Shown here in pieces: positions 6,055-60,663 of a stretch of DNA of 64,000 nt. The notes beneath the pieces were generated by a model, which ran no database searches, was not told where the DNA came from, and saw only the letters and a program-made list of their open reading frames with translations. The translations under genes were made by a program, and so were the position numbers. Location: NCBI GenBank assembly GCA_965203275.1, contig OZ241865.1, positions 2,208,001 to 2,272,000 of the forward strand, given 5' to 3'. Within the stretch, counting starts at the first letter, position 1. Every line of letters begins with the position of its first letter. This DNA comes from Bdellovibrionales bacterium (GTDB lineage Bacteria; Bdellovibrionota; Bdellovibrionia; Bdellovibrionales; JAUICD01).

Positions 6055-6393
6055 GTGAAGCGAATATCTTGTTTCCTTAACATGGTGTCAAGAGAGGAAG
6101 GGATCCTTTCTACTAAAAGTAAACGGACTTTTGAGGCATTGCTCTTTTAATATAATTTTGAAAGCATTTTGTTTCCTTAACATGATGTTAAAAGAGGAAA
6201 GGATCCTTTCTACTAAAAGTGGTCAGGCTTTCTAGGTTGCCAGCAATTGAGAAGGCGATAGCCTTCGGCTGGCAACCAGAAAGTAGCCAGAGGCTATCGA
6301 CCACTTTTAGGGAAACAGAGGCTGGTTCAATTTTAGGGAAACAAACGTGGTCATCGCCAGAAAGTAGCCAGAGGCTAGACCACTTTTAGTGAA
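6055..6393 (+). repeat. Cluster of branched palindromic elements (left half, full copy, two right halves)
   Basis: TTCCTTAACA-N3-TGTYAA, GGATCC, ACTAAAAG.../...CTTTTAG arms and CC-AGA-GG side hairpins. Confidence 0.9.
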
Positions 6394-6673
6394 CCAAATG
6401 ATATTTTTGGAGTTGTTTTTGTAAGACAGTTCTCCAATAGAGAGGATGATAACCTAGCTTACTAGCAGCCATCTTGGCAAAATCTGGTGGAGGGAGTGCT
6501 TGTTCTTGCTCGATCATACTTAAGAAATCATTTGAAATGCCAAGCTTTTTAGCAAGTGCAGATGAAGATATTTGTTCGGACTTTCTCTCAGCCATTAAAA
6601 GATCACCAAATTTTAATGGGCCTAGTTTTTTTGCTAATATTTCTCTGGCTGTTTTATCATCTTTTTTTGTCAT
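6386..6673 (-). CDS. HTH (XRE-like) antitoxin, HigA-type
   Basis: HTH signature SSSALAKKLGISNDFLSMIEQ; overlaps the upstream toxin-like gene. Confidence 0.75.
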   Translation of the reverse strand: MTKKDDKTAREILAKKLGPLKFGDLLMAERKSEQISSSALAKKLGISNDFLSMIEQEQALPPPDFAKMAASKLGYHPLYWRTVLQKQLQKYHLVH

Positions 6674-6945
6674 GAGGACCTCTCTACTTTGAGAATAACA
6701 ATATGATTGATTTGACCTGACTTGCTAGCTTCATAAATAACCCGATAAAGTTTGCCAAAGTAAGCAACTCTTTGCCCATTTTGTTGTCCTTTAAGGGCTG
6801 TGTCATTGTATTTTTTGACCTTTTTTACTTGAGACCAACCAATAGTCTCCATAGCTGTAACCCAAGAGTAAAGCCGTATCAAAATATACTTAGGCAGTCG
6901 ATTGATGATTTTATTGTCTGCAAAAATAATCTTATCCATAAGCAC
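6670..6945 (-). CDS. RelE/HigB-like toxin
   Basis: Small basic protein with YNDTALKG...QRVAY...YRVIY pattern; toxin-before-antitoxin order as in higBA. Confidence 0.65.
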   Translation of the reverse strand: MLMDKIIFADNKIINRLPKYILIRLYSWVTAMETIGWSQVKKVKKYNDTALKGQQNGQRVAYFGKLYRVIYEASKSGQINHIVILKVERSS

Positions 6946-7128
6946 CTATATACTGTGCTGGCATTAAAACTTATTATAAAACAAAATAATAATTTCTTAT
7001 CAATTAATTATATATAGTTATAAAAATGCAAATAACACTTGTCAACAATTTATTAATGATGTAGTGTGCCATAAAATAAATAAAATAGTTTATTTTGAAA
7101 ATCAAATCAACAGGACAGGAGGTGTCAA

Positions 7129-8001
7129 ATGAAATACTTTATTATAATATTTATCCTTATGCAAGGAGCTTTAGCTCGAGCAGATTTATGTAGCCCTACA
7201 TGGTGGGAGGGCATAACATTTGATGAATTAACAGAATATACTGACGTTGGCCGTCACTTTTTTATGATAAATAGTACATGCCCTGATGGAAATAAACCTA
7301 TCCATTTAGCAGCTATGGCTAATGTACCTTTAAAGTCTATAAATTATTTTTTAAACCAAATAGTTCGATTGCATACTTTTACTAACCTTGCTCAAGAAAA
7401 TAATGACGGTCACACCCTTTCAAGTTTTCTTGCTAATGAAAATCAATGGGTTAGGTTCTATTCGGAGGTTACTGTAGAGATTATAACTTTAAATGATATA
7501 CCTTCATCTGATATGGATTCTTCTCCTTCTATAAATGAAGCACTCATGCAAGAAGTTTGTGATTTGACCTGGTGGGAAAACAGAATACAAAATGAATCTC
7601 AATCGGTGGAATATAATGAATCTCAATTGGTGGAATATCTAGTACAAGATGACCAAGACTTTTTAACACTTTACAATACCTGTGAAGATGGCAACATGCC
7701 TATACATCTAGCAGCTCAAGCAGGTGTATCTTTAATAGTAATGAATGTCTTTTTAGGAAGATCAGTACTCAATCATTTACATGAGGTTCTTTATCAAAAA
7801 AATCATCAAGGTCAAACACCTTCTGATCTTATGACAGAAAACAATTATCAAATAGCTACTTTTGATTTACAATTTTTCTTGGATGTCGAGATGCGTCATC
7901 GTGGACCCTTGTTAAGAGATATTGAACCTGATGATAATGATAATTTTGATGATATTGATGATGATTTTGATTTTCTAAATCCCCTTATCCCTCAACGCTA
8001 G
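7129..8001 (+). CDS. Secreted protein with two ankyrin-like modules
   Basis: Signal peptide; duplicated unit C-x2-TWW...DGN(K/M)PIHLAA...N-x2-G(H/Q)T. Confidence 0.65.
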   Translation: MKYFIIIFILMQGALARADLCSPTWWEGITFDELTEYTDVGRHFFMINSTCPDGNKPIHLAAMANVPLKSINYFLNQIVRLHTFTNLAQENNDGHTLSSFLANENQWVRFYSEVTVEIITLNDIPSSDMDSSPSINEALMQEVCDLTWWENRIQNESQSVEYNESQLVEYLVQDDQDFLTLYNTCEDGNMPIHLAAQAGVSLIVMNVFLGRSVLNHLHEVLYQKNHQGQTPSDLMTENNYQIATFDLQFFLDVEMRHRGPLLRDIEPDDNDNFDDIDDDFDFLNPLIPQR

Positions 8002-8027
8002 TGAATATTCATGGTATATGAAAGTCA

Positions 8028-9557
8028 ATGCAAAGCCAAAGTATAAGTAAAAGATTACTTTTATTAATTTTAGATGGGGTAGGGCTTTCTAATAAAAAGC
8101 AACACAATGCTCTTTTTTTAGCAAAGACCCCTCATTTTAATACATTCCTTAAAACAGGTTTGCATAGCAGGTTAAAAGCCTCTGGATTGGCCGTAGGGCT
8201 TCCTCCTAAGGTGATGGGCAATTCTGAAGTAGGGCATCTTACAATAGGAAGTGGAAGAATCCTCCTCCAAGATTTACTTCGAATTTCTCAATTTACTCAA
8301 AAGCATTCTTTTGCTGATTTGCCTGATGTTCAAAGAATAAGTCAATTAAATGGGCATTTACATTTATTAGGACTGCTGTCTGATGGTTGCGTACATGCTT
8401 CTTTAGATCATTTAAAATCTTTGATTGTGGATATTTATAAGGCCTTTCCTCAAAAAAAGGTTTCTATTCATATTATCACTGATGGACGTGATACATCTCC
8501 TTATAGTGGGAAGAAATATGCTTTAGAATTAGAAAGTTTTATCACCCCTTTTGACAATGTAAGGATATCAAGTGTGGCAGGACGCTTTTACACTATGGAT
8601 AGAGATAAAAGATGGGACCGCATACAGGTAGCTTATCAAAATATAACAGGTTTATCACATCATAGAGGTTTTTCTCTAGCTTCAGAAGGCATTCAAGCTG
8701 GGTACGATGCAGGGATCAGCGATGAGTTTATCAAGCCATTTCAAATACAAGGTGGACAGTGTATTCAAGAAAAAGATCAATGCATTATTTTTAATTTCAG
8801 GGCAGATAGAGTGCGTCAAATCTCAGAAGCTTTGGCTAATAGTCACTTTGAGGCTTTTAAAAGACCTTTTGTGATGTCTCCACAAAACCTTTTAACTTTT
8901 ACAAAATACAGAGAAGATTTTTTATTTCCTGTGTTATTTTCAAAGGAAGTACCAGAAAATTGTCTTGGAGAAATATTATCAAAGAAGGGTTTAAAACAAT
9001 TAAGAATTGCAGAGACAGAAAAGTATGCCCATGTAACTTATTTTTTCAATGGTGGACGAGAGAGACCTTTTGAGGGGGAAGATCGTATTTTAATTCCTTC
9101 TCTACAAGATGTAGCTACTTACGATCAAAAGCCTCAAATGAGTACCTATGAGATCACAGATCAAATGTTGGCCTGTATGTCTAAATATGATGTGATCATT
9201 GCTAATTTTGCTAATGGGGATATGGTTGGCCATACAGGTAATGAAACGGCGGTTATTAAAGCAGTAGAAGTTATAGATGAATGCTTGGGCCGTATTGTCA
9301 AATATGGCAGAAATTTTCAGTATGATATTTTTATTACATCAGATCACGGCAATTGTGAAGAAATGTTTTGTTCTAAAACGCTTCTGCCTTTAACTCAACA
9401 CACAACAAACCCTGTACCTTTCATTTGGATACCTTCTCGAGATTCACAATCTCGCAAGCTGTTAGATGGGGAGCTTTCTGATATAGCTCCCACAATTTTA
9501 AGTTATTTAGGGTATGAAGTTCCTGAGCAGATGACAGGTCACAATCTTATAGCTTAG
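8028..9557 (+). CDS. gpmI: 2,3-bisphosphoglycerate-independent phosphoglycerate mutase
   Basis: MGNSEVGH, DGRD, AETEKYAHVTYFFNGG, DMVGHTG and TSDHGN motifs. Confidence 0.97.
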   Translation: MQSQSISKRLLLLILDGVGLSNKKQHNALFLAKTPHFNTFLKTGLHSRLKASGLAVGLPPKVMGNSEVGHLTIGSGRILLQDLLRISQFTQKHSFADLPDVQRISQLNGHLHLLGLLSDGCVHASLDHLKSLIVDIYKAFPQKKVSIHIITDGRDTSPYSGKKYALELESFITPFDNVRISSVAGRFYTMDRDKRWDRIQVAYQNITGLSHHRGFSLASEGIQAGYDAGISDEFIKPFQIQGGQCIQEKDQCIIFNFRADRVRQISEALANSHFEAFKRPFVMSPQNLLTFTKYREDFLFPVLFSKEVPENCLGEILSKKGLKQLRIAETEKYAHVTYFFNGGRERPFEGEDRILIPSLQDVATYDQKPQMSTYEITDQMLACMSKYDVIIANFANGDMVGHTGNETAVIKAVEVIDECLGRIVKYGRNFQYDIFITSDHGNCEEMFCSKTLLPLTQHTTNPVPFIWIPSRDSQSRKLLDGELSDIAPTILSYLGYEVPEQMTGHNLIA

Positions 9558-9790
9558 TATATATTTAGGTTATTGAGTACACATTCTTGCTTGACAAAAT
9601 ACCATTCATAATGATCGCAGTAATGAGTGAATTATCCCATAGAAGTATGAATTTTTGAAAGAGTTTGACAAATATAAGGCACTTTCCTTAATATGTGGTT
9701 AAGAAGTGAGGAGATCCTTTTTCCGGGATCCGGGATGGCAGTCTGGGATCCGGCAACCCGGCATCAGGTCGAAAGGAAAAGGAACTTTTT

Positions 9791-10517
9791 CCTTAACATG
9801 GTGTTAAAAGAGGAAAGGATCCTTCCTACTAAAAGTAAACGGACTTTTGAGGTTGCCAGCCTTTGATCGACGGCGGTAGCCGTCGGGCTGGCTACCCAAA
9901 AGTGACCAGAGGTCAGTTTACTTTTAGTGAGACAAACCCTTAACATCATGTTAAGAGACGAGAGGATCCTCCTTACTAAAAATAAACGGATTTTTGAGGC
10001 ATTGCTCTTTTTAGACAGCGTAAGCTGTCAGAGCAATGCCCAAAAACAGCCAGAGGCTGGTTTATTTTTAGTGAGACAAACCCTTAACATGGTGTTAAAA
10101 GAGGAAAGGATCCTTCCTACTAAAAGTAAACGGACTTTTGAGGTTGCCAGCCTTTGATCGACGGCGGTAGCCGTCGGGCTGGCTACCCAAAAGTGACCAG
10201 AGGTCAGTTTACTTTTAGTGAGACAAACCCTTAACATCATGTTAAGAGACGAGAGGATCCTCCTTACTAAAAATAAACGGATTTTTGAGGCATTGCTCTT
10301 TTTAGACAGCGTAAGCTGTCAGAGCAATGCCCAAAAACAGCCAGAGGCTGGTTTATTTTTAGTGAGACAAACCCTTAACATGGTGTTAAAAGAGGAAAGG
10401 ATCCTTCCTACTAAAAGTAAACGGACTTTTGAGGTTGCCAGCCTTTGATCGACGGCGGTAGCCGTCGGGCTGGCTACCCAAAAGTGACCAGAGGTCAGTT
10501 TACTTTTAGTGAGACAA
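9791..10517 (+). repeat. A-B-A-B-A tandem of two variants of the palindromic element (291-bp period)
   Basis: Units start at 9791, 9938, 10082, 10229 and 10373. Confidence 0.95.
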
Positions 10518-10532
10518 AAGAAGGATATTTTT

Positions 10533-12227: not shown

Positions 12228-12253
12228 GGTGAAACATGATGGATTTTCTAAGT

Positions 12254-15974: not shown

Positions 15975-16350
15975 TGAAGCGAATATCTTGTTTCCTTAAC
16001 ATGTAGTCAAAAAACGAAAAGATCCTCCTCTACTCAAAATGAGCAGTTTTTTGCGGCATTGCTCTTTTTAGACAGCGTAAGCTGTCAGAGCAATGCCTCA
16101 AAAATCCGCTCATTTTGAGTAGGCAGAATATCCTTCTCCCTTAACACCATGTTAAGGAAACAGTGCTTTTATTGCCTTAAAAGCAAGCACTCTGCAAATG
16201 AAACTCTTTTTCCTTAACATCATGTTAAAAGAGGAAAGGATCCTTTCTACTAAAAGTGGTCAGGCTTTCTAGGTTGCCAGCATTTAAGAAGGCGGTAGCC
16301 TTCGGCTGGCAACCAGAAAGTAGCCAGAGGCTAGACCACTTTTAGTGAAA
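15975..16350. repeat. Palindromic element cluster: inverted doublet plus one full copy
   Basis: TGTTTCCTTAACATG at ~15989 mirrored by CATGTTAAGGAAACA at ~16148; full copy ~16208-16350. Confidence 0.9.
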
Positions 16351-16353
16351 TAG

Positions 16354-38559: not shown

Positions 38560-39146
38560 AAAAATTGTTTCCTTAACATGGTGTTAAAAGACGAGAGGAT
38601 CCTCCCTACTAAAAGTGGTCAGACAGCAAGCTTCTCTGAAGCTTGCCATGTAACAACACTAGGCGATGACCATTTTATCGACGGGAAATAAATATCTTGT
38701 TTCCTTAACATCGTGTAAAGAGACAAGAGGATTCTTCCTACTAAAAATAAACGGATTTTTGAGGCAATCAGCCTTTGATCGACGGCGACAGCCGTCGGGC
38801 TGATTGCCCAAAAACAGCTAGAAGCTGGTTTATTTTTAGTGAGACAAACGTGGTCATCGCCAGAAAGTAGCCAGAGGCTAGACCACTTTTAGTGAGCCAA
38901 CGGCATTGCTCTTTTTAGACAGCGTAAGCTGTCAGAGCAAACGTCAGAAGGAAATCTTTTTCCTTAACATTGTGTTAAGAAATGAGGACATCCTCCTTCC
39001 TAAAATTGAACAGGCTTTTGAGACAGTTAGCCTTTGATCGACGGCGAGAGCCGTCGGGCTAACTGTCCAAAAGTAGCCAGAGGCTAGTTCAATTTTAGGG
39101 AAACAGAGGCTGGTTTATTTTTAGTGAAACAACTCATTTTGAGTGA
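38560..39146 (+). repeat. Nested cluster of palindromic elements
   Basis: Two full copies plus separated left and right halves. Confidence 0.9.
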
Positions 39147-43640: not shown

Positions 43641-43654
43641 TTAAGGTGTATAAA

Positions 43655-44794: not shown

Positions 44795-44956
44795 ACTCTA
44801 TTAGTCTTTTATGAAGCAACATGTCTTATGAGAATTAATGCAATTGCGGTGGCTCAAAAAAAGATTTGACAAAAGTATGGCTTTGTTCTTTACTAATCAA
44901 AAACTTATACCTCAAACACAGTTCAAACACCTAGTAAAAATAAAAGGATTTACAAA

Positions 44957-46989: not shown

Positions 46990-46998
46990 GGTTACATT

Positions 46999-49254: not shown

Positions 49255-49375
49255 AATAGATACCTCTTTTAAGTATACCATAAACTTGCAAACACAGTGG
49301 AAGAATATACTTATCTTTGAAAGAAATATTACGGACAGACAAATATCTACAAAGTTAAACAATAATGTCTCAAAC

Positions 49376-49996
49376 CTAGGCATTACCTAGGACATAACCA
49401 ACGAAAACCACTAATATCCAACCCAGTGTAGAAATACCTACAAAACGAAACCAAGATTTTGATGATATGATTTTATCTTTTTTGATAATACTTCTAATAG
49501 ACCATGCACAGAGAAAAGGAATGCCAAAAGGGAACACCAATCCCATTGTAAGAGGAAAAATCGCAACGCCAATTAAAAACTGCTCAAATAAAGGCGACAA
49601 AATAATAGCCTGAAAACTATCATCTGCCCTAACTCTATAGAAAGAAAAATCACTGACCTGATATAAAATGAAACAAAAGGCTATCACTAAAATGGTAGCT
49701 AATAAAAAAGACAAAATAAAACTACTTAAGGCAGCTGCCTCTGGCAAGGTATATAATTTTTGACGTAAAGGTGGATAAATAAGGGCTACACATCCAGGAA
49801 AACCTGTCACAAACAAAGCAGCAAGCACCGCAATACTCAATACTTGAAAGCTATTGCTTGCCCCGCCGACACTGTAAGCTTTCACACTCAATATGGCTAT
49901 AGCATAGGTTAGGATGCCTACTAAAACCCAGCTGATCACTGCTAATAAAGCTAATATACGCCATTGAACTAAAGGATTTTTAATGTTTTTTATCAC
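49376..49996 (-). CDS. Multi-pass membrane protein, paralog B
   Basis: About 5 TM segments; paralog of the adjacent gene. Confidence 0.75.
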   Translation of the reverse strand: MIKNIKNPLVQWRILALLAVISWVLVGILTYAIAILSVKAYSVGGASNSFQVLSIAVLAALFVTGFPGCVALIYPPLRQKLYTLPEAAALSSFILSFLLATILVIAFCFILYQVSDFSFYRVRADDSFQAIILSPLFEQFLIGVAIFPLTMGLVFPFGIPFLCAWSIRSIIKKDKIISSKSWFRFVGISTLGWILVVFVGYVLGNA

Positions 49997-50079
49997 TATT
50001 TCGACCTTATCAATTGAACCTATAGTTATATTTTAGCACAATATGATTGCATTTTAGCAACTTTAGTGAAAATCTCTGA

Positions 50080-51174
50080 TCAATCACAGTCAACAGTATC
50101 AACACAAGCAAGATCAATCAGTTCAGATAATAATTCCTTATAAGGCAACCCACTTATTTCCCATAGCTTAGGATACATACTAATGGCAGTAAACCCTGGT
50201 ATAGTGTTGATTTCATTGACAACAAGCTCCTCATTATTTTTAAGAAAAAAATCTACACGAGCCATACCTTTACATTCCAATAATAAGAAGACATCTTTTG
50301 CAAGCTGTTGAATATTTTTTACTATTTTATTTGAAAGATTTAAGTTTGAAGTTTTAAGTGTCGCTCCTTGAGGGTCTAAATATTTTGCTTCGTATGAATA
50401 AAAATCATGCTGTGGTATAATTTCCCCAGGTAAAGAAGTTTTTGGATTTTCATTACCTAAAACAGCGACTTCTAACTCTCGTCCTATAATACCTTCTTCC
50501 ACAATGGCTTTTTTGTCATATTGAAAAGTATTTTGTATAGCTTGAGTTAAATTGTTTTTGTCTTGCACTTTTTGAATGCCAATAGACGATCCCATATTGG
50601 CAGGTTTCACAAAGAGAGGAAACTTTAAGTGAGATATTTGCCTGAAGACCTCTTGCTTTTGCCAATAATGAGCAGAATCTTGCAGAGCAGATAACTCCAC
50701 AAACGGACCTACAGAAAAACCAAAAGCTGAAAGTAATTTTTTAGTAAATATTTTATCCATGGCAAGAGCAGAGGCTAAAATATCTGAACCTACAAAGGGA
50801 ATACCATAACATTTAAGAAGTCCTTGAAAGCTACCATCCTCTCCATAAGGACCATGCAAAACAGGGAAAGCTATATCTATGGACAATGGCTCTGATGGTA
50901 TGTTGGCACGAAGATCAATAAGTGATGCTGTTTGATTCTGAGGGATGAGAGTAGCAAGGTTTCCCATTTGATGAAATTTCAATTTTCGCTTTGGTTCTAA
51001 AAAAGCATCTATATCAGTAATATGATACCAAGTGCCTTTTTGAGATATCCCTATAAGAAACACTTCATATTTATTCTTGCTTAGATTCTGGAAAACACTA
51101 CGTGCTGACTGAACAGAAATAAAATGTTCCGCAGATCGACCTCCAAAAAATAAAGCTATCTTTAACTTTTTCAT
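50080..51174 (-). CDS. ddl: D-alanine--D-alanine ligase
   Basis: FGGRSAEH, LHGPYGEDG, VKPANMGSS and NEINTIPGFT. Confidence 0.97.
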   Translation of the reverse strand: MKKLKIALFFGGRSAEHFISVQSARSVFQNLSKNKYEVFLIGISQKGTWYHITDIDAFLEPKRKLKFHQMGNLATLIPQNQTASLIDLRANIPSEPLSIDIAFPVLHGPYGEDGSFQGLLKCYGIPFVGSDILASALAMDKIFTKKLLSAFGFSVGPFVELSALQDSAHYWQKQEVFRQISHLKFPLFVKPANMGSSIGIQKVQDKNNLTQAIQNTFQYDKKAIVEEGIIGRELEVAVLGNENPKTSLPGEIIPQHDFYSYEAKYLDPQGATLKTSNLNLSNKIVKNIQQLAKDVFLLLECKGMARVDFFLKNNEELVVNEINTIPGFTAISMYPKLWEISGLPYKELLSELIDLACVDTVDCD

Positions 51175-51496
51175 ACCATCTTATAGCACCGTCTCCATCT
51201 CAAAGCAAATTAAAGCTGTATATAGAACTGCTGATCTTATACATTAAAATTTCATTTATATTATGGTCTACAGGTGGAAATGTTCTACCTTTGCTGAATT
51301 GTCCAGATTGTTGGGGAGCTTCTGATCTGGAGGTCTACAAAAAATGCCTTTAAAATATAAAAATCTAAGAACAGATAATATATAATAAGTTTTGAGTTTT
51401 TGAGTTTAAGATAAGCTTTACAGAATATTTATAGATTGTTATATAAGTGAGCAAAGAGGAGGTTATCAAGATAGCCCGATATTCTAAAGAACATAA

Positions 51497-52102
51497 TTAA
51501 TCAATATTAACAAGTTTCTTATTCTCTGTTATAATCCATATATCCCTGTGCATATTTCTAGCTCCAATTAAAAACTTTACATTTCGATAACCCATGTTAT
51601 CTATCCTTACGTATCTATCTGTAGCCAGGCCAGAATCAGCCCTTGAGACTTGTTGTGGTGGATAAAAGGGATTTCTTAAAACTAAAAAACAATTTGGATT
51701 TCTACCTTGCCTTATTTTACTACTGCATGCATTAAATATATTTGCCTTGTAATTAGTTGCTAGTGGACCTGTGTATGGTGGGCTTAATGAAGGCCGAGGA
51801 TCTGTATTCTTCACGTTAACGTTGTGAGGCACTCCAAATTTTCGTTGGTTATGCCATCCTGCTGTATAATGATACGTGCCTTTTGGTTCAAAGCCGAGCT
51901 GTGAAAAGCTGGCCGTACCATATCCATAATTGGTGATAAATACCTTTTCCATTGTGTAAAGTGTAGATAAGGAAAGTTTAGCCTCTCCCTGTCTAGCCTT
52001 CGCTTTGTACTTTTGATATTGTGGAATAGCCACAACACTTAAAACACCGATAATGCCTACGACTACCAATAACTCAATTAAAGAAAAGCCTGCTTGTTTC
52101 AT
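51497..52102 (-). CDS. Type IV pilin-like protein
   Basis: G|FSLIELLVVVGIIGVLSVVAIPQY prepilin motif. Confidence 0.9.
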   Translation of the reverse strand: MKQAGFSLIELLVVVGIIGVLSVVAIPQYQKYKAKARQGEAKLSLSTLYTMEKVFITNYGYGTASFSQLGFEPKGTYHYTAGWHNQRKFGVPHNVNVKNTDPRPSLSPPYTGPLATNYKANIFNACSSKIRQGRNPNCFLVLRNPFYPPQQVSRADSGLATDRYVRIDNMGYRNVKFLIGARNMHRDIWIITENKKLVNID

Positions 52103-52115
52103 ATTGTGTTTCCTT

Positions 52116-52589
52116 TTAAATAACTGTTTCCTTACAAAAACTATCAAAAACTTGCCACTTTAGCTGTTGGCAATCCAATGGCTTATCATTATCCAAAGAG
52201 ACCACAAGCCCACAAATATATACCCTGTGATCATGAAACTTCTTAGATGTTGATAGTGTTTCTTTACAAGCTTGAGTCATGGCCGGAATACCTCGATAGA
52301 TATTGCATGTGCTTTCCTTACAAGCACTTAAAAGATTTGCCTTAGTTCCTTTCAATTTGTTTTTTTCAATATAATTTGTGTTTGGACTATAAAGACTATC
52401 CCATGCTTTCTGTGTGATGCGAATGTCTGTATTTATCCTTTTGTCTGTTTTTACATTAAGGCTTTCATTAATAAAAGCAATTGGAGCAATCCATGATATT
52501 GCCAAGCAAACAAAAGCACACGATAACCCTATAGGATTATCTAGTTTCTTAATCGTTATTTTTAGAAAGTTAAGTGTCTTTAAAACCAT
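52116..52589 (-). CDS. Hypothetical membrane-anchored Cys-containing protein in the pilin cluster
   Basis: N-terminal hydrophobic segment; abuts the stop codon of the upstream pilin. Confidence 0.55.
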   Translation of the reverse strand: MVLKTLNFLKITIKKLDNPIGLSCAFVCLAISWIAPIAFINESLNVKTDKRINTDIRITQKAWDSLYSPNTNYIEKNKLKGTKANLLSACKESTCNIYRGIPAMTQACKETLSTSKKFHDHRVYICGLVVSLDNDKPLDCQQLKWQVFDSFCKETVI

Positions 52590-53290
52590 TATCCGCCATT
52601 TATATAATGTGTTAGCTTTTTATTTGAATTAATTAGCCATTGATCAATCCTTTTGCCACCAATATTGCCAGTAGCATTAATATTAAAAATGACTTCACTT
52701 CCTCTATTATTAACACCATTAGGACTATAGCCACAGTTGCCTGTACCTCCTGGTGGTGTTTTATTACATTGTCCTCTAACCATGTTATCAAAAGTACAAG
52801 TTACTCCAGTGCCACAGTCTGGACAAGCACACGTACCAGTAATCTTCATCCTCGGAGTCATGCTATCATTTGGATGGAAGCTCAATACACCCGGAGCAAA
52901 ATCAAAGTTCATTTCTAGTGTATTAACTTCATCTATATCTGTAGCTAAAGGACCATCATAGCCACCACCTGACACCTGAGATCTGGCCGTTACGTTGACA
53001 TTTATTCCTACAGCTACTTTGTCTCTTATATGCCATCCGGCCATATAATAAGCATCTCCTATTTGGCTATATCCCATTTGTCGTAGGTTAGGTGTTCCAA
53101 CATCCCACTCGGTGATAAATGTCATTTGGGCCCCATAAATACCACTAAGTATTGTTTTAGCATTGGCTTGAATAGCCTTTCGTTTAAATTGACCATATTG
53201 TGGTACGGCAATCACAGCTAATATGCCAATAATAGCCACAGTAACCATTATCTCAATTAAAGAAAATCCTTTTTGATTTGATCTGTCCAT
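52589..53290 (-). CDS. Type IV pilin-like protein
   Basis: [25 protein letters not shown]; Cys-rich variable region. Confidence 0.92.
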   Translation of the reverse strand: MDRSNQKGFSLIEIMVTVAIIGILAVIAVPQYGQFKRKAIQANAKTILSGIYGAQMTFITEWDVGTPNLRQMGYSQIGDAYYMAGWHIRDKVAVGINVNVTARSQVSGGGYDGPLATDIDEVNTLEMNFDFAPGVLSFHPNDSMTPRMKITGTCACPDCGTGVTCTFDNMVRGQCNKTPPGGTGNCGYSPNGVNNRGSEVIFNINATGNIGGKRIDQWLINSNKKLTHYINGG

Positions 53291-53306
53291 AATATCATCC
53301 TTAAGA

Positions 53307-53731
53307 TTTCACTCAAAATGCATCATGCCTCTGGCATGTTTTTGGGCAGTTAGCCCGACGGCTTATCGCCGTCGGGCTAACTGTTATTAGAAGGATATTT
53401 TCCTTAACATGATGTCAAGAGGCAAGGATATCCTTTCTTACTTGAAATGAACGGATTTTTTAGGTGTTGCCTATTTTGTCAAAGGCGAAAGCCTTTGCAG
53501 GCAACACCAAAAAACACACCAGAGGTGTGGTTCATTTCAAGTGAAAATGACGGCTGGTTTATTTTTAGTGAAAATGTAAGAAGGAACTTTTTCCTTAACA
53601 TGGTGTTACAAAATGAGGAGATCCTCCCTACTAAAAGTGGTCAAGCTTTCTAGGTTGCCAGCATTTAAGAAGGCGACAGCCTTCGGCTGGCAACCAGAAA
53701 GTGACCAGAGGTCAGACCACTTTTAGTGAAC
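53307..53731. repeat. Palindromic element cluster (reverse partial, two full copies, one right half)
   Basis: Arms ACTTGAAATGAAC/GTTCATTTCAAGT and ACTAAAAGTGGTC/GACCACTTTTAGT. Confidence 0.88.
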
Positions 53732-53734
53732 CAT

Positions 53735-54225
53735 TTAATTTCAGGGTATTTGGTCTTTAGATAGTAGAAAAAGTACAAAGGAACAGCATGATTTTTTCAT
53801 AAAATTCTTTTCATTTGTGAAAAAGGTGTCGCAAAGTACCGATAAAAAGTATATAATGGATCTCATCACTAAAGCGATGACTTATTTTTATCAGTACAAT
53901 AATCAGTTAAGCAAAGAAGTTGTTCAATCAGCTTCAAAAGAAGTGACCCAACAATTAGGAGGAGAAGATCTTATGGAAGCATTTGACTTTACCATAGAAG
54001 GTACTATGAAAAAAGGCATTCAGATTGGCCAAGAGAAAGGCAGAGAAGAAGGTAGGCAAGAAGGTAGGCAGAAGGTAGGCAGAAGGTAGAGAAGAAGGAA
54101 AGCAAAGTATTATCTTAAAAATGCTTAAAAATAACATGGATATTTCGACTATTGCAAAAATCACAGAGTCCACAGAGAACAAAATACGAGAAATACAGAA
54201 AAAACTACAAGTTTCAAATTCCTAA
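53735..54225 (+). pseudogene. Frameshifted C-terminal remnant of an Rpn/YhgA-like nuclease gene
   Basis: KGIQIGQEKGREEGRQEG repeats, then EGREEGKQSIILKMLKNNMDISTIAKITE in another frame. Confidence 0.7.
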
Positions 54226-54390
54226 AACATAGCTTTTCTTACTGATCATAGCTTATCTTAATCTTTTCCAGTGTGGATGATCACCAGGCTAGAGTTAAGA
54301 ATCAAGAACCTCCCAAAATATTTTATTTTGGATTACAAATATTTAGACAGTTCTCAAAGATTTTAATTTTAAGATTCTAACTTCTAGCTT

Positions 54391-55974
54391 CTAACTTCGA
54401 CTGATGTCATTAACAAAGGACCAAGACACATCAACACCTTTATTCTCTATATTTTGTATAGTTTTTAATAAGCTAATTTGTGAAAACAATGGCAACCTTT
54501 GAGTTTTTGTTTTTGCAATAATTAGATAATGTACATGAGGCTTTTCAAGTTTTTTTCTAGACAATTTTGTTGTTTTTTCAATACCTTTTATAAATGTTTC
54601 ATCTTTGCTAAGTAATAAAGATAAGGATACATCTCCTTGCTGGAACAAATGACTTAATCCTGATGAACCTTGATGTTTTATTTTGACATGTACAAAATAA
54701 GCTTTTTCATCAGAAGCACTGCATAAAAGGACATCACAAGGTTCTATTTTATCATAGCCACCCATTGGAATTAATTTCTTATCTAAACAATGTGCATTTT
54801 CCCATTTATTGGCCAATGCTTGATTGTATTCTGCTTCATTTTTGTGTTGATAGTCTATAAACTTTTTATCACTCAAATTTTCTTTTTTATATTTGCTTTC
54901 ATTAATTTTTTGTATTTTTTGAGATAATTTTTGATCTATTTTATACCAATAAGAGTTAGACAAATGATATTTTTTTTCTGATATAGAGCAGTCAAAAATC
55001 AAACACTCATAAACAGAGAATCTATTTGATTTACTGTCATTGCTATCAAATAAAATAATGTCCCATTTCTTTAAATTTTCAACATTTAAACTTTCAAGAA
55101 ATTTATCTTTTTGCAATAGTTCATAAAGCTTACTAATATCTAATTCTGTTATTGAATGTTTTTTTCGATTTTTAAAATTAATTTGATAAGAATTTACCAT
55201 TTGAAAATCAATCGGCTTTGGTATATCCAAATAGATATTATCAGATTGATCTTTCAGAAACCTAATTAGCTGATCATCGAGTTGGTTAATGATATCTTTA
55301 TCTTTTACTCTTTCGGTATAAAAAACTTCTGGAAATTCTTTTTCACAGTCTTTTTTCTCATATATTTCATAAAGTTTTTTACATAATTTATCTAAATCTT
55401 CTAGAGGTTGATCAGAATCTATTGTAATAGAATCCGATCCACTAATACTTGAAAATAGATCTTTGTATTTCTGTTTTGTTTTTCCTGTAATGCGTCTTAA
55501 AATATTGGAAAATTTATCTATATCATGTCCTGTAAGACTTGAATCTTGAGTTGTTTGAGTTCTTTTTTGCTTTGAGTGATCAGAAGGGATAAACACATCT
55601 GAACTTTTGATTTTGTCTTTATCTAAGGAGTTTAAAGCTGTCTTTAAACCAAAATCCCCGACAACTTTATTTTTATCTAGTGCGGTGCTACCATATCCAA
55701 AGCAAATAGCAAATACATATTGTGAATTGTAAGGAATGAATAAAACAGCACTTGCATTTGAGGTTTTAATCTCTATTCCTAGATATTTAGACCATAAAGG
55801 TTCAAGAGGTATATTTTTTTTAACAAATAACTTCCAGTTTTTGCCATATTTTTTTTCTTTTGGAACTTTTTCTGGTTTAAATTTGGAATCGTCTTTTAAA
55901 AATTTGGAAAGATCATGTCCTGCCTCTGTCTTTAATAAAACAATAGATAATTTTTGCTTCTTAGTCTTGTTCAT
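54391..55974 (-). CDS. DUF6119/TIGR04141-like protein with PD-(D/E)XK-like C-terminus
   Basis: FAICFGYG, DFGLKTALNS, E-x2-YN, IEPCDVL...VHVK and SGLSHLFQQG pattern; family name recalled, not searched. Confidence 0.7.
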   Translation of the reverse strand: MNKTKKQKLSIVLLKTEAGHDLSKFLKDDSKFKPEKVPKEKKYGKNWKLFVKKNIPLEPLWSKYLGIEIKTSNASAVLFIPYNSQYVFAICFGYGSTALDKNKVVGDFGLKTALNSLDKDKIKSSDVFIPSDHSKQKRTQTTQDSSLTGHDIDKFSNILRRITGKTKQKYKDLFSSISGSDSITIDSDQPLEDLDKLCKKLYEIYEKKDCEKEFPEVFYTERVKDKDIINQLDDQLIRFLKDQSDNIYLDIPKPIDFQMVNSYQINFKNRKKHSITELDISKLYELLQKDKFLESLNVENLKKWDIILFDSNDSKSNRFSVYECLIFDCSISEKKYHLSNSYWYKIDQKLSQKIQKINESKYKKENLSDKKFIDYQHKNEAEYNQALANKWENAHCLDKKLIPMGGYDKIEPCDVLLCSASDEKAYFVHVKIKHQGSSGLSHLFQQGDVSLSLLLSKDETFIKGIEKTTKLSRKKLEKPHVHYLIIAKTKTQRLPLFSQISLLKTIQNIENKGVDVSWSFVNDISRS

Positions 55975-56291
55975 TCATTTATTCACTTTTATTTAAAGTA
56001 CCATTGGATTTGATCATCTAACCGAGATTTTAAGCAATATTTTTCCTTCATAATTGAAAGATGATGGTGAATTGAGGGTTGTCAAGGTTGATTCAATTAT
56101 TTTTTTCACTTTCTGTAAGACAAGGCATTTTTTCCTTAACATGGTGTTAAGAGACAAGAGGGTCCTTCTCTACTAAAAGGCCTGAGTTTGATAGCCTGCA
56201 AAAATAAAATTGAGTAAAATCAGTACGTTATAAGCCGAGAGAGATTTTATGCCACTAGGATGTAAGCTTTTCATATTGTCATCATAAATAA

Positions 56292-56319
56292 AACAAAAGG
56301 GCCGTGAGACCCTTTTGTT
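56292..56319 (-). terminator. Rho-independent terminator after the major pilin gene
   Basis: AACAAAAGGG/CCCTTTTGTT stem; a second hairpin CATAGGGACT/AGTCCCTATG lies adjacent. Confidence 0.65.
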
Positions 56320-56395
56320 AAAAAAAACATAGGGACTTAGCAATAGTCCCTATGCTCATCATGCTTAAACTTTAAAATTAAAGGATCGTGTTTCT

Positions 56396-57112
56396 TTATT
56401 GTGTCCCGTCTTCCTCATTTTGCATTACTTTACCACTAGACATAGTCCACTCATCAGTTACAGCACCCCCTATATCTCCAGAGGCCCCTATAATAAAAGC
56501 AATATTGCCAGCACCTCGGACAGAATTATCTATGGCACTAGCTCCAGGTGTTGCTGCAGTAACTATCTGCCCTAAACAACTTGACCTATTTCCAGCTCCA
56601 TCATGCGGATCGCATAAAGTAGTACTCCCGGTGCAGTCGTTTGTGGCAACGGTCCATCCACAATATGTATTTCCTGACGCCTCCACGATTGAAGGCGTTC
56701 CAGCTGTAATACCATAAGCTGTATCGAATGCTTCATGTGTACTTACCTTATCAACATCAGCAGCTGTTTGTGGAAGTGGTCCTCGAAAACCCGCTGGCCG
56801 GGTTATTGTATTTACGTTATTATTGGTAGTGGTTTTTTGAGCTGCCGCCCATCCAGCATTATAAGTTACAGCTCCGTCAGTATTAAAGCCTAACTGTACC
56901 AAACTCGCTGTTCCAACTCCCCATTCAGAAATAAAAGCTATTTCAGTTGCATATATACCAGAAAGAAGTGTCTTCGCTTCTGTTTGCATTGCCCTTCTTT
57001 GGAATTGAGCATATTGTGGAATAGCCACAGCGGCCAGAATTCCAATAATAGCCACGACGACCATTAATTCAATTAAACTAAAACCTTTTTGATTCTTAAT
57101 TAAACGTTCCAT
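56396..57112 (-). CDS. pilA: Type IV pilin, probably the major pilin
   Basis: [33 protein letters not shown]; own terminator. Confidence 0.85.
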
Positions 57113-57132
57113 AATAACCTCCACGGTTTAAT

Positions 57133-57340
57133 TCACTAAAAGTGGTCTAGCCTCTGGCTACTTTTGGGCAATGACCGCAAAGGCTTTCGCCTTTGACAAA
57201 ATGGTCATTGCCTCAAAAGCCTGACCACTTTTAGTAGGAAGGATACTTTCGTTTCTTAACACTATGTTAAGGAAAAAGTTCCTTCTGTTGATTTCCTTTT
57301 CACTCAAAGTAAACCAGCTTCTGGTCACTTTTAGTGAAAC
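57133..57340 (-). repeat. Reverse-oriented palindromic element plus partial copy in the pilin 5' region
   Basis: ACTAAAAGTGGTC/GACCACTTTTAGT arms and TTAACACTATGTTAAGGAAA. Confidence 0.88.
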
Positions 57341-57352
57341 ATTCTAAACGAC

Positions 57353-57769
57353 CTAGTGATTTCAATGACTTAGTACTGTGACTTTTGTATAAAAGTCACA
57401 ATTTGAAAAAGCAAAAAACAGGCAAATTTTTGCAAGAAAATTGTTTTGAAAAATAAAACAAAGCAAAAGTTATAAAACACAAATGAAAAACCATTACTTA
57501 TTTTTCTGATCTTATGTTTTTAAGATTAGTAAAGTGTTTCAAGATGATACAAAAATTTTAAAAAGTGATTCTTTTTGATACAAAATGTCACTTTTTTTGA
57601 TTTTTTTTAACAAAAATATAAAGTTTTATGTCATAATAAACGATAAGAATTGTGTTAGACGAAAAATTAGAAATTTCTAAAGTCGACCTAAAAAAGTCTA
57701 ACAATTACAAACACTTAATACTGTGACTTTTATACAAAAGTTACAGTATTAACTTATTGAAATCACTAG
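57353..57769. repeat. 48-bp inverted repeats (44/48 identical) flanking a 321-bp AT-rich segment
   Basis: 57353-57400 matches the reverse complement of 57722-57769. Confidence 0.9.
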
Positions 57770-57824
57770 ATTTCCAATTTTCAAATACCCTTTTCCCTAT
57801 CTTTTAGAAAAATTCCCAAAAGAC

Positions 57825-58383
57825 GAACATCTTGTTTCCCTAACATTGTGTCAATCCGGGATCTGGGATCCGGGATCCAGCAACCCGGCATCTGGTCCTA
57901 GAAATGAACTTTTTCCTTAACATCGTGTTAAAAAACGAGGAGATCCTTTCTACTAAAAGTGGTCAGGCTTTCTAGGTTGCCAGTAGTGATGAAGGAATTT
58001 TTTCCTTAACATGATGTTAAAAAAGGAAGAGATCCTCCCTACTAAAAGTAAACGGACTTTTGAGGCAATGACCATTTTGCCAATGGCAAAAAAAGTGAAA
58101 TAAATATCTTGTTTCCTTAACATGGTGTTAAGAGACAAAGAGATCCTTCCTACTAAAAGTAAACGGACTTTTGAGGCATTGCTCTTTTAATATAATTTTG
58201 AAAGCATTGTGTTTCCTTAACATGCAGTAAAAAAATGAAGAGATCCTCCCTACTCAAAGTGAACAGGCTTTTGAGACAATGACCATTTTGTCAACGGCGA
58301 AAGCCGTTGCGGTCATTGTCCAAAAGTGGCCAGAGGCCAGTTCACTTTGAGTGAAACAGAGGCTAGTTTACTTTTAGTGAAAA
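57825..58383 (+). repeat. Palindromic element cluster (stacked left halves, one full copy, one right half)
   Basis: Five TTCC(C/T)TAACAT starts; full copy ~58210-58357. Confidence 0.9.
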
Positions 58384-60103
58384 CAGTAGGAAGGGTTTTG
58401 ACTTATGCTTATGAAAGTTCCAGGTTTAGTTGCAGGAACTGTTGGTAGAGGAGTTTCAGTAGGAAGGGTTTTGACTTATGCTTATGAAAGAGAGGCTGGA
58501 TGGGAACATTTATTGACGAATTACAGTTTCAGTAGGAAGGGTTTTGACTTATGCTTATGAAAGTTGTTAAGGGATATATTGATGGTCGCTTCTTTACAAG
58601 TTTCAGTAGGAAGGGTTTTGACTTATGCTTATGAAAGCGAATATATTATGCATTTAGATACACTTACAACAGGTTTCAGTAGGAAGGGTTTTGACTTATG
58701 CTTATGAAAGCAAAGAAAGGATGGGCATCGGCAAATCCTTTTTATAGTTTCAGTAGGAAGGGTTTTGACTTATGCTTATGAAAGTTTATACAGGCAACAA
58801 AGCACTAAGACTTAAACGCGTTTCAGTAGGAAGGGTTTTGACTTATGCTTATGAAAGCCGGAAGAGTTGATCAGTATATTTGGGATAAGTTTGTTTCAGT
58901 AGGAAGGGTTTTGACTTATGCTTATGAAAGCTTCCCGTATAGCTTTTTCTGCATTGCTTTATGTTGTGTTTCAGTAGGAAGGGTTTTGACTTATGCTTAT
59001 GAAAGCCTACACACCGCCTTTATGCGTGGTAGTGAAAGGTTTCAGTAGGAAGGGTTTTGACTTATGCTTATGAAAGCTCACAAACGCACTTTCTTTGTCT
59101 TGATCTTGAAAGGTTTCAGTAGGAAGGGTTTTGACTTATGCTTATGAAAGAGACCTTGACGATAGTGATGGCAGTGAAATTGATAGTTTCAGTAGGAAGG
59201 GTTTTGACTTATGCTTATGAAAGTCAGTTCAGTTTACTAAGTTAAATGAGATATTTAGTTTCAGTAGGAAGGGTTTTGACTTATGCTTATGAAAGTGCAC
59301 TTCAAGCGGTCTAATGACCATCTTAGTTTTAGTTTCAGTAGGAAGGGTTTTGACTTATGCTTATGAAAGGAAGAGCCTGGTGATGGTGACTTAACACTTG
59401 CAGGGTTTCAGTAGGAAGGGTTTTGACTTATGCTTATGAAAGGTGATAATTGGTGATGAGATATTGGGTAAGCAATTAGTTTCAGTAGGAAGGGTTTTGA
59501 CTTATGCTTATGAAAGGAAGAGCCTGGTGATGGTGACTTAACACTTGCAGGGTTTCAGTAGGAAGGGTTTTGACTTATGCTTATGAAAGGTGATAATTGG
59601 TGATGAGATATTGGGTAAGCAATTAGTTTCAGTAGGAAGGGTTTTGACTTATGCTTATGAAAGGGGTTTATGATTCCGCAAAAGCTCAAGCTGAAATAAG
59701 TTTCAGTAGGAAGGGTTTTGACTTATGCTTATGAAAGTTAAACCCCGAAGCCGTCGCCCCACATGCAAATAGGTTTCAGTAGGAAGGGTTTTGACTTATG
59801 CTTATGAAAGCAAGGTCAATATGGTAACCTGTTAGGTTCTTAAAAGGTTTCAGTAGGAAGGGTTTTGACTTATGCTTATGAAAGCCAAAGTTAAATAAGA
59901 GACCTAAAGGTACACAAATGTTTCAGTAGGAAGGGTTTTGACTTATGCTTATGAAAGGTTGTATCTCTTTAGTTCTCTTTCCCTCGGTTCCTGTTTCAGT
60001 AGGAAGGGTTTTGACTTATGCTTATGAAAGGTCATTACGACAGCTTTTCTTACAGCTTTACGTATGTTTCAGTAGGAAGGGTTTTGACTTATGCTTATGA
60101 AAG
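58384..60103 (+). CRISPR. Type II-B CRISPR array: 24 repeats (38 nt), 23 spacers (33-37 nt)
   Basis: Repeat GTTTCAGTAGGAAGGGTTTTGACTTATGCTTATGAAAG; first repeat lacks GTTT; + strand inferred from complementarity to the tracrRNA. Confidence 0.98.
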
Positions 60104-60237
60104 GCTTAAAATATCCTACGGATTGCAATGGGTTAGGGGTGATATGATGTGTTATTTTTCGAAGAAAAGTATATTGTAAAAAATATGCTTGATTTTGCGA
60201 AGACATTTTACCACCTCCTACTCATAGCTCTAGTAGC

Positions 60238-60391
60238 CCTATAGTATAAGTTAAATCTTTTAACCACTGTAATCATCTGATGATGTGATCAAATCATATA
60301 TAAATCATATATGATTTGTCATAAACAAAAGAGAACAAAAACTTAAGGGTTTTGTGACCAAGCCACTACCAAAGGTACGCTTGGTTTTTTT
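60238..60391 (+). ncRNA. tracrRNA-like RNA with extended scaffold, copy 1
   Basis: Anti-repeat 60243-60261, then AACCACTGTAATCATCT, extra hairpins and a terminal stem-loop with U-tract; 5' end approximate. Confidence 0.65.
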
Positions 60392-60430
60392 ATACTCCTA
60401 TACTTTTCTATCATTGCAATAGTTTAAATC

Positions 60431-60496
60431 CTGAGTTTGATAGCCTGCCTGAAAAAAAGAAAATGTCCATATTCGCAAATCAACTGTCAAACTCAG
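60431..60496. mobile_element. 66-bp MITE-like element with 13-bp terminal inverted repeats
   Basis: CTGAGTTTGATAG ... CTGTCAAACTCAG; isolated ends also at ~31117-31146, ~33735, ~40389-40440 and ~56180. Confidence 0.55.
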
Positions 60497-60511
60497 AATT
60501 GTGTTCAAGGA

Positions 60512-60663
60512 CATTTTGTTTCCTTAACATCATGTTAAAAAATGAGGAGATCCTCCTTACTAAAAGTAAACGGACTTTTGAGGCAATCAGCCTTTGATCG
60601 ACGGCAAAAGCCGTCGGGCTGATTGCCCAAAAGCAACCAGAGGTTGGTTTACTTTTAGTGAAA
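60512..60663 (+). repeat. Full copy of the palindromic element
   Basis: ACTAAAAGTAAAC/GTTTACTTTTAGT, AACC-AGA-GGTT and CGACGGC-AAAA-GCCGTCG. Confidence 0.9.

What the first reader, a model, noticed from the sequence alone, without database searches (positions are those of the whole stretch)
6055..60663. Abundant ~150-nt branched palindromic element with compensatory evolution and a conserved unpaired A
Seen: about 20 full or partial copies at ~6055, 9791, 15975, 38560, 53307, 56125, 57133, 57825 and 60512. Fixed layout: TTAACA-N3-TGTTAA hairpin, GGATCC-centred dyad, 13-bp outer stem, inner stem, T-rich one-sided bulge, apical hairpin, side hairpin, and a GTGA(A/G)AC-like end. The stems covary. 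Outer: ACTAAAAGTAAAC/GTTTACTTTTAGT (9828/9916), ACTTGAAATGAAC/GTTCATTTCAAGT (53440/53530), ACTCAAAGTGAAC/GTTCACTTTGAGT (58252/58340), CCTAAAATTGAAC/GTTCAATTTTAGG. Inner: GGTTGCCAGC, GGCATTGCTCT, GACAGTTAGC and GACAATGACC, each with its complement. Side hairpin: GACC, AGCC, CACC, GGCC, AGCT or AACC around a constant AGA loop. Apical loop: GGTA, GTAA, GATA, GACA, GAAA, GAGA (once AAAA), closed by C-G. The complete copies I compared all keep one unpaired A on the 5' strand (TTTTG-A-GG vs CC-CAAAA; CTTTCT-A-GG vs CC-AGAAAG). Established: folded single strands with extrahelical bases are substrates of HUH (IS200/IS605, RAYT) transposases and of integron integrases at attC. Inference: a non-autonomous element selected on single-strand fold, with its mobiliser outside this window. 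I do not recognise it as a described family.
Basis: partly seen in the sequence, partly recalled or inferred. Interest (0 to 1): 0.88.

Follow-up and report, generated by a model that had tools for sequence, protein, structure and literature searches.

The report
Self-nesting branched-hairpin selfish DNA repeat
A roughly 150-base non-coding unit that folds into a three-armed hairpin fills 6% of this uncultured Bdellovibrio-like genome; it spreads as one folded strand, replaces a little target DNA instead of duplicating it, and no enzyme that could copy it was found.

Summary
Real. The window holds 14 full copies plus fragments; the genome about 730 full copies among ~1,390 pieces (6% of DNA). 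The three-way-junction core covaries (at least 36 distinct double substitutions) and keeps an unpaired A (645/674; 122/123 in sister species G001). The two 5' 'hairpins' do not covary. G-T outnumbers A-C 63:14 (29:8 in G001), so the shown strand folds. Perfectly paired cores are more often multi-copy (40/211 vs 16/201). Empty/filled pairs show no target duplication, 0-59 nt of target lost, ragged donor-derived ends and short microhomology. Copies insert into older copies, favour tRNA-gene edges, and drag cargo on the 5' side. No Rfam match. Found only in one genus (G004's hits look mis-binned). No Y1/RAYT or reverse transcriptase in this genome; RecJ not found either. Best reading: a non-autonomous element selected on its fold and integrated by end-annealing. 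A DNA route (0.35) narrowly leads an RNA/RT route (0.3) and a lost HUH enzyme (0.2). This scan noted the family before in other windows of this genome.

The parts
60522..60663 (+). Reference full copy, solo and perfectly paired
60522..60538 (+). 5' box: invariant left arm CC(T/C)TAACAT, variable right arm; conserved in sequence, not covarying
60559..60571 (+). Outer stem, left arm (pairs with 60647-60659); 9 perfect haplotypes with 5 or more copies in the genome
60572..60580 (+). 3-nt purine-rich junction linker and 6-bp T-stem (pairs with 60628-60633)
60581..60581 (+). Conserved unpaired A
   Evidence: 645 of 674 parsed copies; 122 of 123 distinct G001 cores
60582..60627 (+). Inner stem (13 perfect haplotypes), T-rich one-sided bulge, apical hairpin with G..A loop (AAAA in this copy)
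60634..60646 (+). Side hairpin with near-invariant AGA loop; commonest 3' junction site for nested insertions
60647..60666 (+). Outer stem right arm, G, and short A-rich 3' tail
6075..6395 (+). Nested stack: 5' remnant, leader, full copy 6175-6316, 26-nt 3' head, 3' remnant; heptamer tract just upstream (from ~5990)
9791..10515 (+). Tandem array of five full copies (A-B-A-B-A); a 5' stub lies at 9683-9723
15994..16351 (.). + copy cut by an opposite-strand 5' part (16087-16160), then full + copy 16212-16351
38571..39130 (+). Nested stack: 5' part with a 38-nt hairpin insert, full copies 38703-38845 and 38962-39104, remnants and a 3' head
53307..53732 (.). Minus-strand 3' part overlapping full + copy 53402-53546, a 3' head, and full + copy 53593-53732
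56134..56180 (+). 5' stub broken off by an unrelated repeat
57132..57338 (-). Full minus-strand copy 57132-57275 and a 3' remnant
57838..58382 (+). 5' stub with heptamer tract, three stacked 5' remnants, full copy 58215-58357, 3' head

Best explanation
A non-autonomous selfish element whose replicating form is the shown strand, folded into a three-way junction with an extrahelical A. SHOWN: covariation, which strand folds, proliferation bias towards perfect folds, true insertion into older copies, no target duplication, target loss, ends carrying donor flank. INFERRED: a single strand leaves a donor copy with a 1-9 nt A-rich 3' tail and a longer, variable 5' leader (3-30 nt, sometimes hundreds, with cargo). 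The tail anneals by 1-6 nt of microhomology to exposed target DNA, most easily an older copy or the edge of a tRNA gene. The folded core loops out, host replication fixes it, and the 5' end joins with loss of 0-60 nt of target. I commit to a DNA intermediate handled mostly by host enzymes (SPDIR-like), helped by loss of RecJ. The invariant 5' box, AGA loop and bulged A probably need a still unidentified binding protein. Confidence: 0.85 that it is a fold-selected selfish element; 0.35 for this DNA route.
For: Fold selection: at least 36 distinct Watson-Crick double substitutions with 8 or more copies each, counted; multi-copy (3 or more) cores 40/211 perfect vs 16/201 imperfect, p=0.0014. Strand: single-mismatch cores G-T 63, A-C 14, other 23; G001 29, 8, 6. 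Nesting: 40/100 outer remnant pairs still complementary vs shuffled mean 12.9, max 27; 611 of 1434 3' ends run into a same-strand remnant. Junctions: about 8 credible distinct empty/filled sites in G000 (from 14 rows and one 4HB site) and about 7 of 9 rows in G001, none with a clear duplication, loss 0-59 nt. 5' microhomology 1.26 nt vs 0.44 null, 0/2000 permutations, in the 31 of 142 junction types with a traceable donor. DNA-type features: GCGNNAGC mini-hairpin in 544/674, and 204 of 567 G..A tetraloops are GNYA; this motif is far more stable in DNA than in RNA and resists exonuclease and SSB (PMC13037366, passages and section 4). No RT, Y1, RAYT or Ku found. RecJ not found in G000/G001 but in 87/101 genomes of the order; a ComEC-type domain and DprA are present. 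SPDIR integrates ssDNA at microhomologies and is ~30-fold higher without RecJ/ExoX (10.1101/2024.07.02.601687, passages).
Against: G001 loops are mostly GNRA (42 vs 4 GNYA; 53 of 123 unparsed) and often T-A closed (29 vs 17), which is RNA-like and not the DNA mini-hairpin. SPDIR is very rare (about 1e-11 to 1e-9 even in the mutant) and is suppressed by DprA (10.1101/2023.11.22.568220, abstract), which is present; ExoVII and MutS are present too. G003, G004's main contigs and other genomes lack RecJ and have no element. Measured microhomology is short, and a few rows may be the same event. An enzyme-free route does not explain the invariant 5' box. Junction counts are inflated by amplification of compound units, and tandem duplication adds to the multi-copy count. 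No release step was observed.
Confidence: 0.35

Rival explanations
1. SINE-like retroposon: read-through transcripts are trimmed to the folded RNA, and a reverse transcriptase acting in trans (group II type, now lost from G000) copies it from a target 3' end annealed to the A-rich tail, joining the 5' end by template jumping.
For: Polarity: short 3' tail, variable 5' end, cargo on the 5' side (four-helix-bundle gene ends followed by a same-strand element in 27/32, second repeat family in 65/89, heptamer tracts in 189/389). G-T far above A-C. GNRA loops in G001. G001 holds an intact group II RT. That RT template jumps leave deletions and microhomology is recalled, not from a call.
Against: No RT or RT fragment in G000, which has about three times the copy density. 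36% GNYA loops in G000. The common stem haplotypes are nearly all Watson-Crick, and 12 of 36 compensations are transversions with no G-U intermediate. No promoter signal above chance at one copy. Only a weak sense bias behind upstream genes, 40 vs 26. No element near G001's group II RT genes.
Confidence: 0.3
2. REPIN-like ssDNA element moved by an HUH (RAYT/Y1/Y2) enzyme that is lost, too divergent to detect, or supplied by a phage or plasmid.
For: Required bulge and cleavage at varying distances 5' or 3' of the hairpin in TnpA-REP (PMC8266576, passages). REPINs show compensatory stems and insert into or next to each other (PMC3116915, passages). No target duplication.
Against: No Y1 or RAYT in G000. 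G001's only Y1 is a lone IS200-type gene with no element near it. G002 has RAYT-like genes but no element. No conserved GTAG/CGTC tag. No fixed junction dinucleotide among 481 noisy sites. No pattern match in IMG/VR. The Y2 and Rep_1 searches were blank but their controls did not ring.
Confidence: 0.2
3. The covariation is mutational: one arm is copied onto the other (template switching or repair of the folded strand), and copies spread by ordinary recombination, with little selection on the fold.
For: Many transversion-type double changes and few intermediates; inverted chimeras joined inside the palindrome; tandem arrays.
Against: Such correction should erase bulges, yet the A and the T-rich bulge persist in two species. 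G-T carriers multiply (63 cores, 111 copies) and A-C carriers do not (14 cores, 15 copies). Insertions into non-homologous sites exist.
Confidence: 0.07
4. A host-serving RNA element (terminator, stabiliser or ncRNA) kept for function.
For: Essentially intergenic: 1 of 1286 long ORFs contains it, and that ORF is made of elements. One shared old insertion behind an NrfD-type gene.
Against: It disrupts its own copies and four-helix-bundle genes. Both orientations occur next to genes. Only 2 of 45 G001 genes with a downstream element have a G000 homologue with one.
Confidence: 0.05
5. A MITE of a DDE transposase using the imperfect inverted ends TTTC..TAA.
For: The 5' box and the 3' end are rough inverted copies; IS256-family and other transposases are present.
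Against: No target duplication, ragged ends, target loss. The IS copies are mostly not flanked by the element.
Confidence: 0.03

Closest known systems
REP/BIME/REPIN elements with RAYT (TnpA-REP); PMC3116915 and PMC8266576, passages read
   Same: Hundreds of intergenic copies, hairpin with compensatory changes, conserved bulge, tandem arrays, insertion into or beside older copies.
   Different: Three-way junction of ~100 nt behind a sequence-conserved 5' box; no GTAG/CGTC tag; no RAYT; not two inverted REPs; target loss and 5' cargo.
SPDIR microindels of Acinetobacter baylyi; 10.1101/2024.07.02.601687 (passages), 10.1101/2023.11.22.568220 (abstract)
   Same: ssDNA integrated at microhomologies without a transposase, replacing target DNA; favoured without RecJ.
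   Different: SPDIR is a rare random mutation process; no selfish family exploiting it was found in my searches; microhomology here is shorter.
Prokaryotic MITEs and Rickettsia palindromic elements; PMC10969869, passages
   Same: ~150 nt, structured, non-autonomous, AT-rich intergenic sites.
   Different: No direct repeats or exact terminal inverted repeats; not in-frame within genes.
IS200/IS605 ends and integron attC sites (recalled; IS608 guide rule seen in PMC8266576 passages)
   Same: One folded strand with an extrahelical base; no target duplication.
   Different: Those reactions are precise; here both junctions are ragged and no cognate enzyme was found.
Mini-hairpin DNA GCGNNAGC of G4/St-1/alpha3 origins; PMC13037366, passages and section 4
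   Same: The apical hairpin carries this motif in 544/674 G000 copies.
   Different: Often T-A closed in G001; no priming role tested.
Non-LTR/SINE-type and group II retromobility (recalled)
   Same: Short A-rich 3' end, variable 5' end, 5' cargo, junction deletions.
   Different: No RT in G000; no group II domains (no Rfam match).

Membership tests
REP/REPIN-RAYT | GTAG or CGTC tag at the base of a short palindrome | tested here: not met
   No such invariant columns in alignment A1 or the 725-copy profile
REP/REPIN-RAYT | Cognate RAYT gene flanked by the repeat | tested here: not met
   PF01797 and NF047646 absent from G000; RAYT absent from G001
REP/REPIN-RAYT | Hairpin with compensatory changes and conserved bulge | tested here: met
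REP/REPIN-RAYT | Cleavage at a fixed dinucleotide near the hairpin | tested here: inconclusive
   No dominant dinucleotide beyond overlap with the AAAC tail; analysis noisy
IS200/IS605 non-autonomous element | Precise insertion beside a 4-5 nt target without loss | tested here: not met
   0-59 nt loss and ragged ends
IS200/IS605 non-autonomous element | Bias to the lagging-strand template | tested here: inconclusive
   Replication skew nearly erased (neighbour autocorrelation 0.06); 1 of 12 tests significant
DDE MITE | Target-site duplication | tested here: not met
   None clear at about 15 empty/filled sites; two nested junctions show a 2-3 nt overlap
DDE MITE | Terminal inverted repeats shared with a resident IS | tested here: inconclusive
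   Rough inverted ends only; IS copies not flanked by the element; ISfinder not available
Integron attC | Integron integrase and cassette array | tested here: not met
   Two tyrosine recombinases only, neither beside an array
Described ncRNA family | Rfam match at gathering score | tested here: not met
   0 in the window; only sub-threshold generic hairpin hits in two loci
Retroposon (SINE-like) | RT available in trans | tested here: inconclusive
   None in G000, three RT genes in G001
Retroposon (SINE-like) | Discrete transcript | not testable with these tools
   No RNA holder listed
SPDIR-like integration | Microhomology at both joints with target replacement | tested here: inconclusive
   Replacement met; 5' overlap 1.26 vs 0.44 nt; 3' overlap 0-6 nt in single cases
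SPDIR-like integration | Independence from a dedicated enzyme | not testable with these tools
   Needs experiment

The most novel reading that the evidence does not exclude
A selfish bacterial element with no transposase of its own or in trans: it spreads because its folded single strand survives in a cell without RecJ and is stitched in at replication forks through microhomology, dragging upstream genes along. The equally unusual alternative is a true bacterial SINE copied by a borrowed reverse transcriptase.
Probability: 0.3. Interest if true: 0.88.

Novelty: new variant of a known kind. Interest (0 to 1): 0.63.

Why it matters
How many small structured repeats of bacteria spread is still open. 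This family gives about 730 copies with 13 inner-stem alleles, a known folded strand, a measurable advantage for perfect folds, nested insertions that record junctions, and a second species. Its insertion signature (no duplication, target loss, ragged ends, one-sided cargo) fits neither MITEs nor IS200/IS605. If no dedicated enzyme is needed, fold alone can make DNA selfish, and loss of one repair nuclease in host-associated bacteria could open the door. It also duplicates neighbouring DNA, such as the four-helix-bundle cassette.

Tried and rejected
Four-helix-bundle gene (PF05635) as partner: multi-copy in G000, G001 and G004 (33, 34, 24 matches), but none of 13 inspected G001/G004 loci (6 and 7) has a same-strand element just downstream, and G004's main contigs have the gene without the element. 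It is cargo in G000, not an obligate partner. G004 as a second genus: its element-bearing contig C11 has an rplB 96% identical to G001's, with a second rplB (69%) on C14, so these contigs look mis-binned; C1 and C4 were not tested this way. Rpn nucleases as mobiliser: G003 has 16 PF04754 genes and no element; PF12784 does track the element (14, 5, 1, 0, 0), but on five related genomes only. Small integrase: look-alike in G002. TnpB search found only 1,340-1,370-aa ORFs. CRISPR guides: none of 15 matches the element beyond 15 nt. General rule 'inserts just 5' of a hairpin': not supported in 57 unique flanks (folding energy equal to shuffled). Replichore bias: uninformative. Strain polymorphism: four runs laid on window 44100-64000 showed no empty site. 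No RNA holder listed. Autonomous partner among genes upstream of the element in 2.37 of 2.94 Mb of G001: none; 9 of 45 candidates scanned in Pfam. A XerD-arm or IS91-type reading of the ends (motifs recalled) was dropped because spacing and G001 leaders do not fit. Literature searches listed no description of this family; the library lacks most subscription papers, and supplements were not read. R-scape and ISfinder were not available.


Full report
OBSERVATION. The quoted stems are in the window at the stated places. It holds 14 full copies and about 20 fragments. The genome (2.57 Mb, one contig, 35% GC, 90% complete by markers) gives 1,386 profile hits, 729 of them full length, covering 6.0% of the DNA in 685 clusters. 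They are intergenic. Relatives are Bdellovibrionales by a record title; a run labelled sponge metagenome holds short, slightly diverged pieces of the window. Rfam has no match at gathering score.

ANATOMY. From 5' to 3': a variable leader; an invariant box CC(T/C)TAACAT with a variable partner arm; a purine/GATCC/pyrimidine spacer; then the core, which is a three-way junction of a 13-bp outer stem, a 3-nt linker, a 6-bp T-stem, one unpaired A, a 10-bp inner stem, a T-rich bulge, an apical hairpin and a side hairpin with an AGA loop; then G and a short A-rich tail. The core covaries: arms are perfectly complementary in 80% (outer), 94% (T-stem), 76% (inner) and 95% (side) of 725 copies, against 13%, 30%, 8% and 21% for independent arms. 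Counting each Watson-Crick pair type seen in 8 or more copies gives at least 36 separate double substitutions, a floor that does not depend on the tree; 12 of them are transversion-type. The pair-count controls agree, though they do not remove relatedness. Inner alleles are shuffled inside outer alleles while each keeps its own partner. The two 5' dyads do not covary.

STRAND AND SELECTION. Among distinct cores with one mismatch, G-T outnumbers A-C 63 to 14 (23 other), and G-T cores have multiplied (111 copies) while A-C cores have not (15). G001 gives 29 to 8. Across all helices including the 5' dyad the raw counts show no such excess (341 G-T, 396 A-C), because that dyad is not selected to pair; without it they are 304 to 154. 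Perfect cores reach three or more copies in 40 of 211 cases, imperfect ones in 16 of 201 (p=0.0014; tandem duplicates are not independent). The unpaired base is A in 645 of 674 and 122 of 123. The shown strand is therefore the one that folds, and the fold affects spread.

HOW IT LANDS. Of 1,434 3' ends, 611 continue into a same-strand remnant, and over a hundred into the opposite strand of the 5' dyad (the latter counted roughly from tail types). These are real insertions: in 40 of 100 nested stacks the outer remnants are still complementary, against 12.9 by shuffling. Self-nesting is much rarer in G001 (31 of 310 ends). Empty/filled comparisons among paralogous sites: one search returned 14 rows, of which I dropped 6 (repeat-on-repeat matches or 'empty' sites with a remnant) and merged a duplicate, leaving 7, plus one site in the four-helix-bundle gene; one search returned 9 rows at about 7 sites in G001. 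Target loss ranges from 0 to 59 nt; no site shows a clear duplication; non-target bases number 3-26 on the 5' side and 1-9 on the 3' side. Leaders are traceable to other copies' flanks and occur in nested lengths (11, 15, 17, 18, 19 nt of one family), with 1.26 nt mean overlap at the joint against 0.44 expected, in the 31 of 142 junction types with a donor. No fixed dinucleotide appears. 3' ends sit within 15 nt of a tRNA gene edge, pointing into it, at 7 of 35 genes in G000 (1.2 expected) and 5 of 32 in the part of G001 held, but a general preference for hairpins was not found. Cargo rides on the 5' side: a four-helix-bundle gene cassette, a second ~200-nt structured repeat and heptamer tracts are followed by a same-strand element in 27/32, 65/89 and 189/389 cases.

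RANGE. G001 (same genus) has 347 hits, 201 full, in 2.37 of its 2.94 Mb. One insertion behind an NrfD-type gene is shared and decayed in G000, so the family predates the split. G004's 12 hits lie on three small contigs, one of which carries a second, G001-like rplB; I read them as mis-binned. No other genome among 151 of the order matched, nor did metagenome or viral collections. Two studies' assemblies share the window's junctions that they cover; no empty allele was seen.

MOBILISER. G000 has no Y1, RAYT (69), RT (14), standalone TnpB (53) or Ku (105); tblastn with seven RT/Y1/RAYT proteins of relatives finds no remnant; 24 proteins with a loose HUH motif gave no obvious candidate by inspection. 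Y2 and Rep_1 searches were blank with silent controls (52, 107). G001 has a group II RT, a deleted copy, a retron-type RT (my reading) and one IS200-type gene; only the retron-type gene has an element nearby, at a tRNA edge. The four-helix-bundle gene, Rpn genes, the small integrase and CRISPR guides failed as partners. RecJ was not found in G000, G001, G003 or G004, but in 87 of 101 genomes of the order. I did not scan the whole proteome.

MECHANISM. The landing pattern points to end-annealing of a folded single strand rather than precise transposase chemistry. For DNA: the GCGNNAGC mini-hairpin in 544 of 674 copies, GNYA in 204 of 567 G..A tetraloops (PMC13037366, passages and section 4), mostly pure Watson-Crick haplotypes, no RT, no RecJ, and the SPDIR precedent (10.1101/2024.07.02.601687, passages; 10.1101/2023.11.22.568220, abstract). 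For RNA: GNRA-rich, often T-A-closed loops in G001, polarity with 5' cargo, and an RT in G001. For a lost HUH enzyme: the REP precedent of a required bulge and variable cleavage distance (PMC8266576, PMC3116915, passages). I put these at 0.35, 0.3 and 0.2. The invariant 5' box and AGA loop suggest a protein reader under any model.

COMPARISON AND VERDICT. It works like a REPIN or MITE (abundant, structured, non-autonomous, intergenic) but fails their defining tests: no tag, no RAYT, no target duplication (MITE features from PMC10969869, passages; PMC3733652 seen as a search listing only). Six searches listed no description of it. Earlier notes of this scan describe the same family in other windows of this genome. 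Class: new variant of a known kind. Interest 0.63; 0.88 if it proves transposase-free or a bacterial SINE.

Noticed in passing
G000, e.g. L213:160-290 and L212: A second ~200-nt structured repeat with two compensating stem alleles (about 45 near-full copies, 138 hits), usually sandwiched between copies of the element; no Rfam match; not found in G001-G004.
   Followed up: partly
L031:2365-2670 and 20-30 loci each in G000, G001, G004: Mobile cassette of heptamer tract, RBS hairpin and 101-aa four-helix-bundle gene (PF05635), expanded also where the element is absent; several G004 copies appear to carry an in-frame insert mid-gene.
   Followed up: partly
L012:11945-12048; L180, L183: A sister form of the core without the 5' box sits inside or behind tRNA-Pro, replacing the anticodon arm.
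   Followed up: no
G001, e.g. L012:8452-8611 and L017: A tiny fold-back insert (about 14 nt, 65 occurrences of its core) recurs in the side-hairpin loop and in a tRNA-Asp duplicate; absent from G000.
   Followed up: partly
window 38571-38684: A 38-nt hairpin insert in the element's junction, 18 copies in G000, with a relative on G004 contigs.
   Followed up: no
window 60533-60538, minus strand: The variable arm of the 5' dyad reads TT(G/A/T)AC(A/T/C) on the minus strand, like an outward -35 hexamer (haplotypes; consensus recalled).
   Followed up: no
G000 whole genome: Replication skew is almost erased, which suggests frequent inversions, possibly between these repeats.
   Followed up: partly
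G004 contigs C1, C4, C11: Probably mis-binned from a G001-like organism: second rplB, near-identical element alleles.
   Followed up: partly
window 227-3731: Six tandem small genes, five with weak coiled-coil-type Pfam hits, resembling families that are multi-copy across the genome.
   Followed up: no
window 60955-62795: cas4, cas2 and a cas1 split into two ORFs, next to a solo element.
   Followed up: no
L017:1282-3054: 590-aa retron-type RT with an N-terminal extension beside tRNA-Asp in G001.
   Followed up: no
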